From Candidatus Pacearchaeota archaeon (lineage in GTDB: Archaea; Nanobdellota; Nanobdellia; Pacearchaeales; GW2011-AR1), in the NCBI GenBank assembly GCA_017609795.1, contig JAFCDH010000001.1:1-52934 (forward strand): a stretch of 52,934 nucleotides of DNA. The letters run 5' to 3'. Shown here one piece after another: positions 5,283-15,211 of the stretch (the stretch's first letter is position 1; each line of letters opens with the position of its first letter). The notes beneath the pieces are model-generated. The model was not told where the DNA came from, ran no database searches, and saw only the letters and a program-made list of their open reading frames with translations. A program made the position numbers and the translations under genes.

Positions 5283-5432
5283 ATGGGAAATAAAAAACAA
5301 AAGAAATATGATTCAGGAAAAGAGTTTTTATTAATTAATAAGATTGATGATATTTGTGAATTTGAAATACCTGATTATTATAAGATTATTTTGATACTAA
5401 AAATAATAAGAAATTGGAGGGATGAATTTTAG
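5283..5432 (+). CDS. small ORF (49 aa)
   Basis: Hand-translated, frame and stop verified. Confidence 0.3.
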   Translation: MGNKKQKKYDSGKEFLLINKIDDICEFEIPDYYKIILILKIIRNWRDEF

Positions 5433-5473
5433 AGGGAAGAGATACATTTGGAAATTAATTGAAATCAAAGAAA

Positions 5474-5653
5474 ATGGAAAAAGAATTTAATTTAAGTGAG
5501 AAAATATTTGGAATTAGACAAGGATTTGTAGCTTATGAAGAAGAAATTAAAGAATTTATTAAGAGAGTGAAGATTGAATTTTATAGACCCTCAACTAATT
5601 GGGATAACTTTGAAGAGATAATAGACAAACTAGCAGGAGATAAATTAACATGA
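5474..5653 (+). CDS. hypothetical protein
   Basis: Track ORF 5459..5653 (TTG); in-frame ATG at 5474; stop overlaps next start. Confidence 0.45.
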   Translation: MEKEFNLSEKIFGIRQGFVAYEEEIKEFIKRVKIEFYRPSTNWDNFEEIIDKLAGDKLT

Positions 5654-6084
5654 AAACAATAAATTGGAATTTTAAATTGAAGAATTGTATTATTTGTAAT
5701 AATATTTTTAAACCAACTAATGGAAAACAAATAACTTGTTGTAAGGAATGTGAGGAAAAAAGAAAACTAAATTATAATAAGAAATATAACAAAAATAATC
5801 CTGAAATTGTTGCTAAATCTGTTAGAGAACATTATCAAAGAAATAAAAAAAAGAAATGTGAATATCAAATAAAATATAATCAAAATCATAAAGATGTTAT
5901 TAAATTAAGAAATGATACAAGAGAATATATTAGGAAAAATAAGATAAATTTTGTTGGTCTTTGTTTAGATTGTGGGAGATTATGTAAAAGAGAAATACAT
6001 CATATAACTCCAACCATTCAAGGATTTATTTTAATCTGTCAAGATTGCCATTACAAAAGACATAATAAAAGGAGTAGAAGATGA
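5650..6084 (+). CDS. HNH endonuclease with N-terminal zinc ribbon
   Basis: CIICNN..CCKECEE; C-terminal CLDCGR..EIHHITP..CQDCHYKRHNK. Confidence 0.6.
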   Translation: MKTINWNFKLKNCIICNNIFKPTNGKQITCCKECEEKRKLNYNKKYNKNNPEIVAKSVREHYQRNKKKKCEYQIKYNQNHKDVIKLRNDTREYIRKNKINFVGLCLDCGRLCKREIHHITPTIQGFILICQDCHYKRHNKRSRR

Positions 6085-6375: not shown

Positions 6376-6571
6376 AAACAATAAAGGTTGTGGAAGAATG
6401 TTAGCAATATCAGAAGATAGAGATTGTGGGGCATTTTGTCCTTTTTGTAAAGAAATTCATTATTGTGTTCTTTGTGGAGGGGGATATGAATTACATAGAA
6501 TTGCACTAAATATGATGGCTAAAGAAATGAAGAAGAAGAAAACTTCCCAAAAACAGAGGAAAATGAAATGA
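6368..6571 (+). CDS. Cys-rich zinc-binding small protein
   Basis: CGRM..CGAFCPFCKE..CVLCGG; ends SQKQRKMK, as does 8187..8378. Confidence 0.5.
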   Translation: MVKNNKGCGRMLAISEDRDCGAFCPFCKEIHYCVLCGGGYELHRIALNMMAKEMKKKKTSQKQRKMK

Positions 6572-6723
6572 CAATTAAAAACTTAGAACAAATGAGCAAA
6601 AGAATATGTAAAGGATGTAAAAAAGAAATAAGAATTGTAATAATTGAAAACCATAAAGCACCTTTACAAATATATCCAAAAGAAAGATTAAATTATTGTG
6701 ATGAATGTTGGGAGAAAAGATGA
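6568..6723 (+). CDS. zinc-ribbon ORF (51 aa)
   Basis: Hand-translated; CKGC...CDEC; ATGA coupling at both ends. Confidence 0.4.
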   Translation: MTIKNLEQMSKRICKGCKKEIRIVIIENHKAPLQIYPKERLNYCDECWEKR

Positions 6724-6854: not shown

Positions 6855-6926
6855 ATAACAAAAACAAATAAACTATGACAAAAACTAAAACTTTAAATAA
6901 AAATTTAGGGCTTATTTGCCCTGTAT

Positions 6927-7000
6927 GGCAGAGGGCCTGGAAACCTACCAGTGAGCCCGCGGGTGTAAACTGGGAAGCAGGTTCGAATCCTGCCTCTGCT
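6927..7000 (+). tRNA. tRNA-like element (non-canonical; tRNA gene, tRNA-derived att fragment or TLS)
   Basis: 7-bp acceptor pairing GGCAGAG/CTCTGCT; perfect T-arm GCAGG-TTCGAAT-CCTGC (6977-6993). D arm and anticodon arm do not fold canonically: CCAGT/ACTGG stem with a 16-nt loop. Confidence 0.4.
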
Positions 7001-7026
7001 AATTGTGAGTAAACACAATAATAAAT

Positions 7027-7116
7027 CCAGTGTGAGTCTGTGCAAGCTCAGACACTCAGGAAAGACTGGGATTGAGGGGAGTGATTAGATATTAACTGTA
7101 TATGGATGCTCCCCTC
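7027..7116 (+). ncRNA. GC-rich structured RNA hairpins downstream of the tRNA-like element
   Basis: CCAGT(7027)-TGA-GTCTG-loop-CAGAC-TCA-ACTGG(7069) hairpin; GAGGGGAG(7074-7081)/CTCCCCTC(7109-7116) 8-bp stem; no ORF. Confidence 0.3.
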
Positions 7117-7132
7117 ATTAAATTCAAATAAA

Positions 7133-7279
7133 ATGGGAACTTTAAAAGAACAAATTGAAGAAGAAATAAAATTCTTATGGGCAATAAGACAAATTTGTTT
7201 CAATAAAAGAATTTTAAAGAAAATACAATTTAGAGAGAAGATACTAAAAAATAAATTAAAGGAGTGTAGTTTAAAATAA
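7133..7279 (+). CDS. small ORF (48 aa)
   Basis: Hand-translated; stop 2 nt before ATG 7282. Confidence 0.35.
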   Translation: MGTLKEQIEEEIKFLWAIRQICFNKRILKKIQFREKILKNKLKECSLK

Positions 7280-7705: not shown

Positions 7706-8194
7706 ATGGGAAATAATGAAGATAAATGTTGTAGATGTAAGGAAAAAAGTTTAATGCAAGTGATGTTGCCAATAGCAGAAGTTACTGAAACTGGTAGGGT
7801 TGTTTTCCCACAAGAAACAGAACAACAATCAGTTCAAATACCAGTTCCTTTATGTTTTAAATGTATGCAATTTGCAAGTGAAGGTTGGATTAATTTAATG
7901 AAAGTTCCTAATAAAGAGAAATATCAATTAATAGAATGTTGTGATAGGAATAGTGATTTTTCTTTAAGAAAAATTGAGGAAAGATATAAAAGTGGGGAAT
8001 TGAAAAAAGACATAAAAGAAACTTTAGAAAAGTTGGGAAAAACAAAAGAACAAATTAAAAAACAGAAGATGAAAAATACTCCTTTTAGGATTTCAATAAT
8101 TGTTGATGAGATTATGGATAATTTTAAAGATTTTGAGAAAAAGGTTAAGGAAAAGAGTTCCGAAAACATAGGAAAGGAGAAGTCAAATGGATAA
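7706..8194 (+). CDS. hypothetical Cys-cluster protein
   Basis: CCRCKE...CFKC; ends KEKSNG in the junction repeat. Confidence 0.55.
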   Translation: MGNNEDKCCRCKEKSLMQVMLPIAEVTETGRVVFPQETEQQSVQIPVPLCFKCMQFASEGWINLMKVPNKEKYQLIECCDRNSDFSLRKIEERYKSGELKKDIKETLEKLGKTKEQIKKQKMKNTPFRISIIVDEIMDNFKDFEKKVKEKSSENIGKEKSNG

Positions 8195-8378
8195 TCCTTG
8201 TTTAGTGTGTCAAAAGAAAGAAGCAGTTGATAGTGGAATGTGTGAGGATTGTTATGATAAAGCTTGTGATTATGCTGAACAAAAATATTATGAAGATGAA
8301 GAAGAAAAGAGATTAAAAAAAGTAAAGATTAGAAAAACAATAAACAAAAGTTCCCAAAAACAGAGGAAAATGAAATGA
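8187..8378 (+). CDS. Cys-rich small protein
   Basis: CLVCQK..CEDC..C; ends SQKQRKMK. Confidence 0.5.
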   Translation: MDNPCLVCQKKEAVDSGMCEDCYDKACDYAEQKYYEDEEEKRLKKVKIRKTINKSSQKQRKMK

Positions 8379-8422
8379 CAATTAAAAACAAAGAACAAAT
8401 ACAAGGGAGGAAAAAAGATTAA

Positions 8423-14948: not shown

Positions 14949-15211
14949 TTTCTTTTTCTTTTGTGTTTTTTTACATTGAATTTCTTTCCTTTCTTGCTTC
15001 TCTTTGTGTATTTCCTAACTTTAACTCTGCCAAAGATATGCCCCGCAAAACGGGGGTGGGTTTTTTTTACTCTCCTTACGCGAGTTAAATCTCCGGGAGC
15101 CCTTGTTAATTTCCGTCCTGTAAGTTGTCCTGTCTTAGAATCTCTTGTTGCAATAGTTCTTCCTGTTTTTTCAATTTTGATAAATTCCTTAGTAACTCTT
15201 TTTACCATCAT
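14945..15211 (-). CDS. very basic small protein (possible nucleic-acid binding)
   Basis: Track ORF; K/R-rich, ends KKHKRKRK; overlaps neighbours by 4 nt. Confidence 0.55.
   Translation of the reverse strand: MMVKRVTKEFIKIEKTGRTIATRDSKTGQLTGRKLTRAPGDLTRVRRVKKTHPRFAGHIFGRVKVRKYTKRSKKGKKFNVKKHKRKRK

What the first reader, a model, noticed from the sequence alone, without database searches (positions are those of the whole stretch)
6908..7116. GC-rich structured RNA island with a tRNA-like element that fails the canonical cloverleaf
This is the only clearly GC-enriched non-coding stretch in the left arm. Positions 6927-7000 have a 7-bp acceptor pairing (GGCAGAG/CTCTGCT) and a textbook T-arm (GCAGG TTCGAAT CCTGC) in 74 nt. 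The D region (GGCCTGGAAACCTA) has no G18G19-type loop. The only anticodon-side stem (CCAGT 6948-6952 / ACTGG 6969-6973) encloses 16 nt that include the palindrome CCCGCGGG. A second hairpin reuses the same stem base (CCAGTG 7027 ... ACTGGGA 7071). It is followed by an 8-bp GAGGGGAG/CTCCCCTC stem (7074-7116) and preceded by GGGC-TTATTT-GCCC (6908-6921). There are four options: a divergent or intron-bearing viral tRNA, a tRNA-derived attachment site (3' half from 6969), a tRNA-like structure used for mimicry, or a novel ncRNA.
Basis: seen in the sequence. Interest (0 to 1): 0.6.

Follow-up and report, generated by a model that had tools for sequence, protein, structure and literature searches.

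The report
Virus-borne tRNA-mimic small RNA family
The GC-rich island is not a tRNA gene but one copy of a previously undescribed small-RNA unit, found in several uncultured viruses, that keeps only the part of a tRNA recognised by tRNA-trimming enzymes and joins it to a conserved hairpin tail.

Summary
The described features are all present at the stated coordinates. The 75-nt element 6927-7001 is not a normal tRNA: ARAGORN finds nothing and Rfam tRNA scores 20.7 bits, below the 29-bit threshold, with only the acceptor stem and T arm aligning. No intron fits, and no host tRNA matches its 3' half.

The island is one member of a conserved multi-part unit. I found 14 more units in metagenomic and IMG/VR viral contigs, from two unrelated virus groups, and none in about 1,250 cellular genomes searched.

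All units share:
- a 7-bp acceptor stem and a 5-bp T stem with a UUCGAAU loop, with 98% of cells paired and 7 of 12 pairs showing compensatory changes;
- a 28-59 nt insert of unrelated sequence in place of the D and anticodon arms;
- a hairpin directly after discriminator A73, with no encoded CCA;
- usually the motif GAAAGACUGGGA;
- a covarying terminal G-run/C-run helix.

The window copy has a host-tRNA-type TATA box (CTTTAAATA) 28-36 nt upstream.

Best reading, partly inferred: a stand-alone viral small-RNA gene whose decayed tRNA-Met core is the minimal substrate for RNase P, tRNase Z and CCA-adding enzyme. What the products do is unknown. No transcript data could be obtained.

The parts
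6891..6899 (+). CTTTAAATA, a TATA-box-like promoter element lying 28-36 nt upstream of G6927
   Evidence: The host bin's tRNA genes carry (A/C)CTTTAAATA-type boxes about 24-33 nt before the mature 5' end. This 9-mer occurs only 4 times on the + strand of the 53-kb window, and this is the only copy in the left arm. Promoter function is inferred.
6908..6921 (+). Inverted repeat GGGC-TTATTT-GCCC, followed by TGTAT, between the TATA box and the start of the tRNA-like module
   Evidence: Most other units have a hairpin at the same position with a different sequence, (A)AGCCCTCAnTTAGAGGGT plus 5-6 nt. Whether it acts as RNA (terminator or leader) or as a DNA operator is unresolved.
6927..7001 (+). 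tRNA-like module. Acceptor stem 6927-6933 with 6994-7000; non-conserved insert 6934-6976; T arm 6977-6993; discriminator A7001; no encoded CCA
   Evidence: Rfam tRNA scores 20.7 bits against a threshold of 29. ARAGORN finds nothing. The acceptor and T stems are conserved and covary across 15 units. The insert is unrelated in sequence between units.
7002..7019 (+). Trailer hairpin ATTGTG-AGTAAA-CACAAT, starting directly after the discriminator
   Evidence: RNAfold predicts it. Most units have a hairpin of unrelated sequence at the same place, and the trailer starts UUG or AUUG in 10 of 15 units.
7020..7050 (+). Variable spacer
   Evidence: The sequence is not conserved. The length between the trailer hairpin and the motif varies from about 0 to 100 nt among units.
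7051..7071 (+). Conserved motif GACACTCAGGAAAGACTGGGA, with invariant core GAAAGACTGGGA at 7060-7071
   Evidence: AAAGACTGGGA is identical in all 8 units aligned and is also present in L342 and L344. The local hairpin CUCAG/CUGGG is not kept in L336a, L342 or L344, so I treat the motif as single-stranded.
7073..7117 (+). Terminal hairpin: TGAGGGGAG (7073-7081) pairs with CTCCCCTCA (7109-7117); 27-nt variable loop
   Evidence: Present in 12 to 14 of 15 units with compensatory variants: GAUGUGGG/CCCACAUC in L072 and L342, GACUGGGGG/CCCCCAGUU in L190, GAUGUGGGC/GCCCACAUU in L344. 91.7% of positions pair, against 67.8 +/- 4.1% when 3' strands are swapped between units (0 of 2000 swaps reach it).
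7134..7279 (+). Next gene (48 codons, ATG at 7134), starting 17 nt after the helix. Not part of the RNA unit
   Evidence: In every unit an ATG follows the terminal helix by about 8-24 nt, but the encoded proteins are unrelated.

Best explanation
Positions 6891-7120 hold a self-contained viral small-RNA gene that belongs to a previously uncatalogued family.

Shown:
- The family keeps a tRNA acceptor stem, a T arm and discriminator A73, with no encoded CCA.
- The D and anticodon arms are replaced by a 28-59 nt insert of free sequence.
- A hairpin follows directly after the discriminator, then usually the motif GAAAGACUGGGA, then a covarying terminal helix.
- The unit occurs in two unrelated groups of uncultured viruses and was not found in the cellular genomes searched.

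Inferred:
- The unit descends from a viral tRNA-Met-type gene. Selection has kept only the acceptor/T-arm minihelix, which is the minimal substrate of RNase P, tRNase Z and the CCA-adding enzyme.
- Transcription starts a few nucleotides before G6927, from a host-tRNA-like TATA box.
- Host enzymes trim the 5' end and cut after A7001.
- This yields a CCA-tailed tRNA mimic without an anticodon, of about 75 nt, and a 3' RNA of about 115 nt carrying the conserved motif between two hairpins.

Which product is the effector, and what it acts on, is unknown.
For: Not a tRNA: ARAGORN finds nothing, and Rfam tRNA scores 20.7 bits, below 29, with only the acceptor stem and T arm aligned.

Family membership, 15 units in all:
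- the window copy;
- 8 metagenome contigs found with a pattern that left the interior free;
- IMG/VR contigs L190 and L336, the latter with two tandem units, found through the 3' motif alone;
- L342, L344 and L345, found without any RNA pattern, through the protein gene that precedes the unit.

Structure of the minihelix: 98.3% of cells pair, 7 of 12 pairs show changes on both sides, and 0 of 500 shuffles reach this. L344 has a wholly different acceptor stem, GCACACG/CGUGUGC. T-stem pair 51:63 is A-U, G-C or U-A. L345 has GCAGU/ACUGC.

Insert: 28-59 nt, with no shared sequence and folding no better than shuffles (z from +0.7 to -1.8). Some members are still near-cloverleaf and pass the Rfam tRNA threshold, L089 at 35.1 bits and L069 at 31.0 bits. 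This fits graded decay from a tRNA.

Origin: canonical tRNAs with this acceptor stem are almost all tRNA-Met(CAT).

Terminal helix: it covaries.

Host and promoter: the host bin has an archaeal RNase P RNA (86.6 bits), and its tRNA genes lack encoded CCA and carry the same TATA motif at a similar distance.

Distribution: absent from the rest of the host bin, from G401, from 400 genomes of the order and from 400 of the phylum. The two carrier groups share no proteins. The window and L074 have a FtsK/A32-type ATPase or a D5-like helicase. L190, L336 and the later finds are tailed viruses with TerL.
Against: - There are no expression data.
- An archaeal promoter can start an RNA anywhere, so a tRNA handle is not needed just to define a 5' end. 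This weakens a pure processing-handle rationale.
- The acceptor-stem sequence GGCAGAG is more conserved than structure alone requires, in 13 of 15 units. Nine of these were found with a pattern that demanded it, but 4 were not. This hints at an unidentified sequence-specific partner.
- No T-run terminator follows the window's terminal helix, so the RNA may continue into the downstream genes.
- Four units (L081, L345, L089, L092) lack the GAAAGACUGGGA motif or have it altered; L096 has only a partial motif.
- The hosts of the tailed-virus group are unknown.
Confidence: 0.55

Rival explanations
1. Cis-acting leader or punctuation element. The unit is the 5' part of the mRNA for the downstream genes. 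The tRNA-like module is only a cleavage signal, or a stabilising or translation-related 5' structure, and no independent small RNA acts in trans.
For: In every unit an ATG follows the terminal helix by about 8-24 nt in the same orientation. No oligo-T terminator follows the window's helix. In L336 two units are tandem and the second lacks its own TATA box, so processing of a longer precursor is needed there.
Against: The downstream proteins are unrelated between units, so no gene-specific regulation is conserved. In tightly packed viral genomes any inserted RNA gene would sit next to the following ATG. Several units end with a helix followed by UUUA or UUUU, which looks like a terminator (L344, L190, L074).
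Confidence: 0.2
2. DNA-level element. The conserved blocks are protein-binding or recombination sites, such as an origin, operator or pac/cos-linked region, and not an RNA.
For: In the tailed-virus group the unit lies beside iteron-like tandem repeats and long non-coding regions (L342 1497-1615, L345 4200-5400). The upstream inverted repeat lies between the TATA box and the predicted start, which is a typical operator position.
Against: Compensatory changes in three separate helices, with loops of 7 to 35 nt, are what RNA structure predicts and not what DNA sites predict. The T loop keeps the tRNA consensus. Some members pass the Rfam tRNA threshold.
Confidence: 0.07
3. Decaying pseudogene of a virus-borne tRNA with no present function.
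For: The interior is degenerate and variable. Viruses often carry tRNA genes that decay.
Against: 15 units in two unrelated virus groups keep 98% pairing through compensatory changes while the interiors are randomised. They also keep conserved 3' modules that no tRNA gene has.
Confidence: 0.04
4. Attachment site (attP) built from the 3' half of a host tRNA gene.
For: The 25-nt T arm plus 3' acceptor strand is the best-conserved block. tRNA-Met-type genes with the same 3' end exist in metagenomes.
Against: No tRNA in the host bin has this acceptor stem. The host elongator tRNA-Met has GGCTGCA and the initiator has AGCGGGA. The best matches in 400 genomes of the order cover only the T arm. The 5' acceptor strand is kept and covaries with the 3' strand (L344). 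No integrase turned up among the 27 window proteins scanned; not all ORFs were scanned.
Confidence: 0.03
5. A working but highly aberrant decoding tRNA: D-armless, with an oversized anticodon loop, or intron-bearing.
For: The acceptor stem, T arm and A73 are intact. A GUGUAAA loop (GUA = Tyr) can be drawn at 6963-6969 on an imperfect stem. A same-genus tRNA-Tyr matches 6959-6995 at 82%.
Against: That stem has a G-G mismatch and leaves a 2-nt variable region. No anticodon-like loop is shared among units. Inserts can be as short as 28 nt. No bulge-helix-bulge motif is present, and 75 nt leaves no room for an intron. The 82% match is within chance over 400 genomes.
Confidence: 0.03

Closest known systems
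TMERs of murine gammaherpesvirus 68: viral tRNA-like RNA fused to pre-miRNA hairpins (recalled from the literature, not tested here)
   Same: Both are virus-encoded. Both have a non-decoding tRNA-like module at the 5' end, followed directly by one or more hairpins. In TMERs, tRNase Z cuts after the tRNA-like part and CCA is added without aminoacylation. This is the closest match in architecture and in proposed mechanism.
   Different: TMERs belong to a eukaryotic herpesvirus. Their tRNA part supplies an internal Pol III promoter and keeps a cloverleaf, and their hairpins feed the miRNA pathway. Here the promoter is external and TATA-type, the D and anticodon arms are gone, and the tail carries a conserved 12-nt motif. 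There is no sequence homology.
mascRNA / MALAT1 and the MEN-beta tRNA-like elements (recalled)
   Same: A tRNA-like fold embedded in a longer transcript is used as an RNase P / RNase Z / CCA-enzyme substrate. The fold starts with G1G2, which in those cases matters for CCA or CCACCA tagging.
   Different: Those are nuclear eukaryotic lncRNAs. Their tRNA-like element lies at the 3' end of the functional RNA and keeps a cloverleaf.
Canonical virus-borne tRNA-Met(CAT) genes
   Same: The acceptor stem GGCAGAG/CUCUGC(C/U), the discriminator A73 and the T arm GCAGG-UUCGAAU-CCUGC are identical to those of phage tRNA-Met genes in IMG/VR, for example L028 and L040.
   Different: There is no D arm and no CAU anticodon arm. 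Rfam scores are below threshold and ARAGORN is negative. There are also conserved 3' modules that tRNA genes lack.
tRNA-like domain of tmRNA
   Same: An acceptor stem plus T arm, with a reduced D region and no anticodon arm. There is a weak Rfam tmRNA hit on one member (16.5 bits, L072).
   Different: In tmRNA the two acceptor strands are the 5' and 3' ends of a roughly 350-nt RNA that encloses an ORF and pseudoknots. Here they enclose only 28-59 nt and the conserved tail lies outside. tmRNA is bacterial. ARAGORN finds no tmRNA.
3'-terminal tRNA-like structures of plant RNA viruses
   Same: Viral mimicry of the acceptor/T-arm half of a tRNA.
   Different: Those are 3'-terminal on RNA genomes, have pseudoknotted acceptor stems and are aminoacylated. 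No Rfam TLS family matches here.

Membership tests
Canonical tRNA (Rfam RF00005) | Covariance-model score at or above the gathering threshold of 29 bits | tested here: not met
   20.7 bits, E = 0.08, on a 451-nt search. No match at gathering thresholds over the whole window.
Canonical tRNA (Rfam RF00005) | Acceptor stem of 7 bp, T arm with the UUCRANY loop, and a discriminator base | tested here: met
   GGCAGAG/CUCUGCU, GCAGG-UUCGAAU-CCUGC and A7001. These are conserved and covary in 15 units.
Canonical tRNA (Rfam RF00005) | D arm with G18G19, and a 5-bp anticodon stem with a 7-nt loop (U33, purine 37) | tested here: not met
   ARAGORN finds no gene, with or without intron mode. Constrained folds give only a 16-nt loop or mismatched stems. 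Family inserts are 28-59 nt with no common loop.
Intron-bearing or split archaeal tRNA | A bulge-helix-bulge motif, and exons that add up to a tRNA of about 70 nt or more | tested here: not met
   The whole gene is 75 nt. Removing any intron of 11 nt or more leaves fewer than 65 nt. ARAGORN in intron mode is negative. There is no second GGCAGAG or complementary half elsewhere in the bin.
tRNA-derived attachment site | Identity of about 20-40 nt or more with the 3' (or 5') part of a host tRNA gene | tested here: not met
   Own bin: at most 15-18 nt, T arm only. 400 genomes of the order: at most 23-25 nt, T arm only. The host tRNA-Met acceptor stems differ. The bin is 83% complete, so absence is not absolute.
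tRNA-derived attachment site | An integrase encoded nearby | tested here: inconclusive
   None among the 27 window proteins scanned. Not all ORFs were scanned.
tmRNA | A tRNA-like domain formed by the RNA's two ends, enclosing a tag ORF and pseudoknots | tested here: not met
   ARAGORN tmRNA search is negative. No Rfam tmRNA match in the window. The acceptor strands enclose only 43 nt.
TMER-like viral tRNA-hairpin RNAs (analogy only) | Virus-encoded, non-decoding tRNA-like module followed directly by a hairpin or hairpins | tested here: met
   A hairpin starts 1-3 nt after the discriminator in most units. The carriers have viral hallmark genes.
TMER-like viral tRNA-hairpin RNAs (analogy only) | tRNase Z cleavage after the tRNA-like part, CCA addition, and no aminoacylation | not testable with these tools
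   This needs RNA-end mapping or enzyme assays.
TMER-like viral tRNA-hairpin RNAs (analogy only) | Pol III internal promoter and miRNA output | tested here: not met
   The host is archaeal (RNase P RNA). The promoter is an external TATA box. Archaea have no miRNA pathway (established knowledge). The resemblance is one of mechanism, not family membership.

The most novel reading that the evidence does not exclude
Archaeal viruses carry a dedicated class of tRNA mimics. In this reading, a tRNA-Met stripped down to its enzyme-recognition half and fused to a conserved effector tail is matured by the host's own tRNA-processing enzymes. It then acts in trans during infection. One possibility is a decoy for a host factor or defence nuclease that reads the tRNA acceptor/elbow. 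Another is a small regulatory RNA whose GAAAGACUGGGA motif binds a conserved host partner. This would be the first such RNA family described for archaeal viruses.
Probability: 0.3. Interest if true: 0.8.

Novelty: new variant of a known kind. Interest (0 to 1): 0.66.

Why it matters
Almost nothing is known about non-coding RNAs of archaeal viruses, least of all those linked to ultra-small (DPANN-like) hosts.

This unit is conserved and structurally constrained, and it occurs in two unrelated groups of virus contigs. That pattern suggests a function that is useful across virus lineages and can move between them.

It also acts as a natural deletion experiment. It shows which part of a tRNA selection keeps when decoding is no longer needed, namely the acceptor/T-arm half.

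It gives a concrete candidate for viral use of host tRNA-processing enzymes in archaea.

For annotation, it shows that sub-threshold tRNA hits in viral contigs can mark a distinct RNA family and need not be pseudogenes. The sequences gathered here can seed a covariance model for that family.

Tried and rejected
- Ordinary or intron-bearing tRNA: ARAGORN, with and without introns, and Rfam are negative.
- tRNA-Tyr-like cloverleaf with a GUA loop: suggested by an 82% match to a same-genus tRNA-Tyr. It needs a mismatched stem and a 2-nt variable loop and is not shared by other units, so I dropped it.
- att site: BLAST of 6927-7001 and 6969-7001 against the bin, a DNA search of 400 genomes of the order and inspection of the host tRNA-Met genes gave no match.
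- Extra copies: none in the bin or in G401.
- Synteny: homologues of the neighbouring protein 7706-8194 exist, but their contigs lack the element.
- IMG/VR relatives through neighbouring proteins or the ATPase: none.
- Pattern CTCAG N0-6 AAAGACTGGGA: too loose.
- Chance matches discarded:
  - L337, a 19-nt match to the motif beside a tmRNA-like gene;
  - G359, inside a coding region;
  - L057, coding-like with no tRNA-like module;
  - C44, an antisense 16-mer in a membrane-protein gene.
- L083 and L087: odd tRNAs inside tRNA arrays, not family members.
- Guide or antisense idea: no complement of the motif or of the variable loops in the host bin or the virus.
- CRISPR-repeat mimicry: the bin has no CRISPR array.
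- Target-site duplication or mobile-element idea, based on CCCTCAnTTA at both ends: this fails in L072 and in the window.
- Hairpin CUCAG/CUGGG in the motif: not conserved.
- Palindromic kissing loops in the insert: not beyond chance.
- Known ribozyme, C/D, H/ACA or 5S families: no Rfam support.
- Literature: three searches found no description.

Full report
SETTING. The window is the whole of contig C78 in an 883-kb, 79-contig bin with about 27% G+C. The bin is archaeal. It has an archaeal RNase P RNA (RF00373, 86.6 bits, above the cut-off) and an initiator tRNA that starts AGCGGG with A1:U72. The contig looks viral. It encodes a FtsK/A32-type packaging ATPase, a fibre with an S74 chaperone domain, large Ig-repeat proteins and a train of tiny zinc-ribbon ORFs.

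OBSERVATION. All the listed features are present. The island is the most G+C-rich 100 nt in the 53-kb window: 54% against 28.5% overall. It folds better than all 200 shuffles (z = -4.4). Within the window alone the tRNA-like signal is modest. Rfam tRNA gives 20.7 bits against a 29-bit threshold, E = 0.08, and only the acceptor stem and T arm align. ARAGORN gives nothing, even in intron mode.

WHAT IT IS NOT. It is not a decoding tRNA. Folds constrained to keep the acceptor stem and T arm leave either a 5-bp stem with a 16-nt loop or mismatched alternatives. A 75-nt gene has no room for an intron. It is not an att site either. The host bin and 400 genomes of the same order match only the generic T arm, mostly of tRNA-Gln. 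The host tRNA-Met acceptor stems are different. There is no second copy in the bin.

THE FAMILY. I scanned metagenome contigs with a pattern that fixed only GGCAGAG, a non-T at position 8, and the T loop plus 3' acceptor strand. This returned real tRNA-Met genes and about a dozen elements that ARAGORN does not call.

The flanks of eight of these show the same layout as the window:
- an upstream hairpin, usually AAGCCCUCAnUUAGAGGGU plus 5-6 nt;
- the tRNA-like module;
- a hairpin starting right after the discriminator;
- the motif (CUGACACUCAG)GAAAGACUGGGA;
- a G-run/C-run terminal helix;
- an ATG about 8-24 nt later.

Searching IMG/VR with the motif alone found L190 and L336. L336 has two tandem units.

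For a sample free of any RNA pattern, I took the protein gene that precedes the unit in L190 and L336, collected its homologues and fetched seven of their contigs. Three of the seven carry the unit:
- L342 has the same acceptor stem and a terminal helix GAUGUGGG/CCCACAUC.
- L344 has acceptor stem GCACACG/CGUGUGC, T loop UUGGAAU and the motif GACACCGGGAAAGACUGGGA.
- L345 has acceptor stem GGUAGAG and T stem GCAGU/ACUGC, and lacks the motif.

None of the three is called by ARAGORN.

STRUCTURE EVIDENCE. I aligned the 15 minihelices with their inserts removed. 98.3% of cells pair, 7 of 12 pairs show changes on both sides, 0 of 500 shuffles reach this, and slid controls give 36-48% pairing. An independent model-based alignment agrees. 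The conservation of GGCAGAG is partly an ascertainment effect, since 9 of the 13 units with it were found using it. The other four (L336a, L336b, L342 and the window) were not, and L190 has GGCAGAAG.

The terminal helix pairs at 91.7% of positions, against 67.8 +/- 4.1% when 3' strands are swapped between units (0 of 2000). I set the registers by hand, so this figure leans upward.

The inserts are 28-59 nt long. They share no sequence and are no more stable than shuffles. L089 and L069 still pass the Rfam tRNA threshold, at 35.1 and 31.0 bits, while L190 and L336a have almost no interior structure. This grading, together with the fact that canonical tRNAs with this acceptor stem are nearly all tRNA-Met(CAT), points to descent from a tRNA-Met-type gene that has lost everything except the acceptor/T-arm half.

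The small hairpin CUCAG/CUGGG inside the motif is not kept: L336a has CUGGG, L344 has CCGGG and L342 lacks it. I therefore read GAAAGACUGGGA as a single-stranded sequence signal.

PROMOTER. Host tRNA genes carry (A/C)CTTTAAATA-like boxes ending about 24 nt before the mature 5' end, and they have no encoded CCA. The window element has CTTTAAATA at 6891-6899, which ends 28 nt before G6927. It is one of only four such 9-mers on that strand in 53 kb, and the only one in the left arm. Other units have AT-rich TATA-like strings 24-32 nt upstream, except the second unit of the L336 tandem. From these spacings I infer that the primary transcript starts at the tRNA-like module or a few nucleotides before it. 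The upstream inverted repeat then lies between the TATA box and the start site. It could be an operator, or the terminator of upstream transcripts.

DISTRIBUTION. The unit is absent from the rest of the bin, from 48 other genomes of the genus as far as searched, from 400 genomes of the order and from 400 of the phylum.

The carriers form two groups that share no proteins:
- Group 1 is the window plus L074. They share an HNH-like 144-aa protein and a 48-aa zinc-ribbon protein, and L074 has a D5-like helicase.
- Group 2 is L190, L336, L081, L342, L344 and L345. L190, L336, L342 and L344 carry a large terminase; L081 and L345 are placed here through the shared gene that precedes the unit.

These groupings rest. 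In the second group the unit lies next to iteron-like repeats. In the window it sits inside a cassette bounded by 58-nt direct repeats that are 93% identical, at 6536-6593 and 8343-8400.

MECHANISM. Shown: a conserved RNA-type structure consisting of the acceptor/T-arm minihelix, A73, no encoded CCA, a trailer hairpin, a sequence motif and a terminal helix. Established knowledge: RNase P, tRNase Z and the CCA-adding enzyme need only the acceptor/T-arm half of a tRNA. Inferred: these host enzymes process the transcript into a CCA-tailed mimic of about 75 nt and a tail RNA of about 115 nt. The effector function is open.

The strongest caveats are these:
- The acceptor-stem sequence conservation is unexplained.
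- The RNA may read through into the downstream genes.

KNOWN RELATIVES. Rfam 15 has no family for this unit, and three literature searches found nothing. The nearest analogue in architecture is the herpesvirus TMER, a tRNA-like RNA followed by hairpins and cut by tRNase Z. mascRNA/MALAT1 and the tmRNA tRNA-like domain share partial logic. None is homologous.

VERDICT. It is a new variant of a known kind, the viral tRNA mimic. The family and its structure are well supported (about 0.9). The processing mechanism is plausible but untested (about 0.55).

Noticed in passing
window 6536-6593 and 8343-8400: Direct repeats of 58 nt, 93% identical, at gene boundaries bracket a cassette of about 1.8 kb. 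The cassette holds the RNA unit and several mini-ORFs, which suggests cassette exchange by recombination.
   Followed up: partly
host bin G000, contigs C17:903-986 (-) and C45:7170-7254 (+): Two 84-85-nt tRNA genes with a long variable arm are called tRNA-Ile(GAU) by ARAGORN. The bin also has a normal 77-nt tRNA-Ile(GAU). Both odd genes have near-identical upstream regions. A type-II tRNA with an Ile anticodon is unusual.
   Followed up: no
L343 1680-1790 and L347 3090-3160: In two relatives of the tailed-virus group the slot of the RNA unit holds a different conserved block, ...CCGAGTTCAAWTCTGGCTTCGRCCATAAAGAGTGAACAAAG. It looks like the 3' end of a tRNA without a matching 5' strand and may be an att core.
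   Followed up: no
L342 1497-1615: About 13 tandem copies of a 9-nt unit (CAAATTGTT) lie directly upstream of the RNA unit and look like iterons. L343, L347 and L348 have GATA-type repeats and long G+C-rich non-coding stretches in the same region.
   Followed up: no
L337 (IMGVR_UViG_3300033153_007277), about 5320-5670 on the minus strand: A tmRNA-like gene (5' GGGGGTGACCTGGATTTGACAGCG..., with a ...CCACCTCCACTACCA end just upstream) lies next to an exact 19-nt copy of CACTCAGGAAAGACTGGGA. I judged the match a chance hit. The layout may be that of a permuted tmRNA gene.
   Followed up: no
L016 (G081:C4 23178-26201): A genome placed in the same family as the archaeal host bin carries 12 tRNA genes and a tmRNA gene within 3 kb. 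This is probably a bacterial or phage contig mis-binned into that genome.
   Followed up: no
L067, L071, L082, L085, L086, L088, L091, L095 (JAABU* metagenome contigs): Multi-copy tRNA-Met(CAT) genes have the same GGCAGAG acceptor stem, A8 in place of U8, an anticodon loop CUCAUGU and T-run terminators. They may represent the lineage from which the mimic's core derives. L068 carries a close variant with a different anticodon loop (CUCAUGA).
   Followed up: partly
window 15042-15069: A hairpin CCCCG-CAAAA-CGGGG followed by T8, in the 480-nt gap between the fibre gene and the next gene. This is the second most G+C-rich spot of the window (48%).
   Followed up: no
window 5650-6084 and L074 (125-aa homologue, 44% identity): An HNH-type endonuclease-like gene lies within 1 kb of the RNA unit in both viruses of the window's group. 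This recalls free-standing homing endonucleases in phage tRNA clusters.
   Followed up: partly
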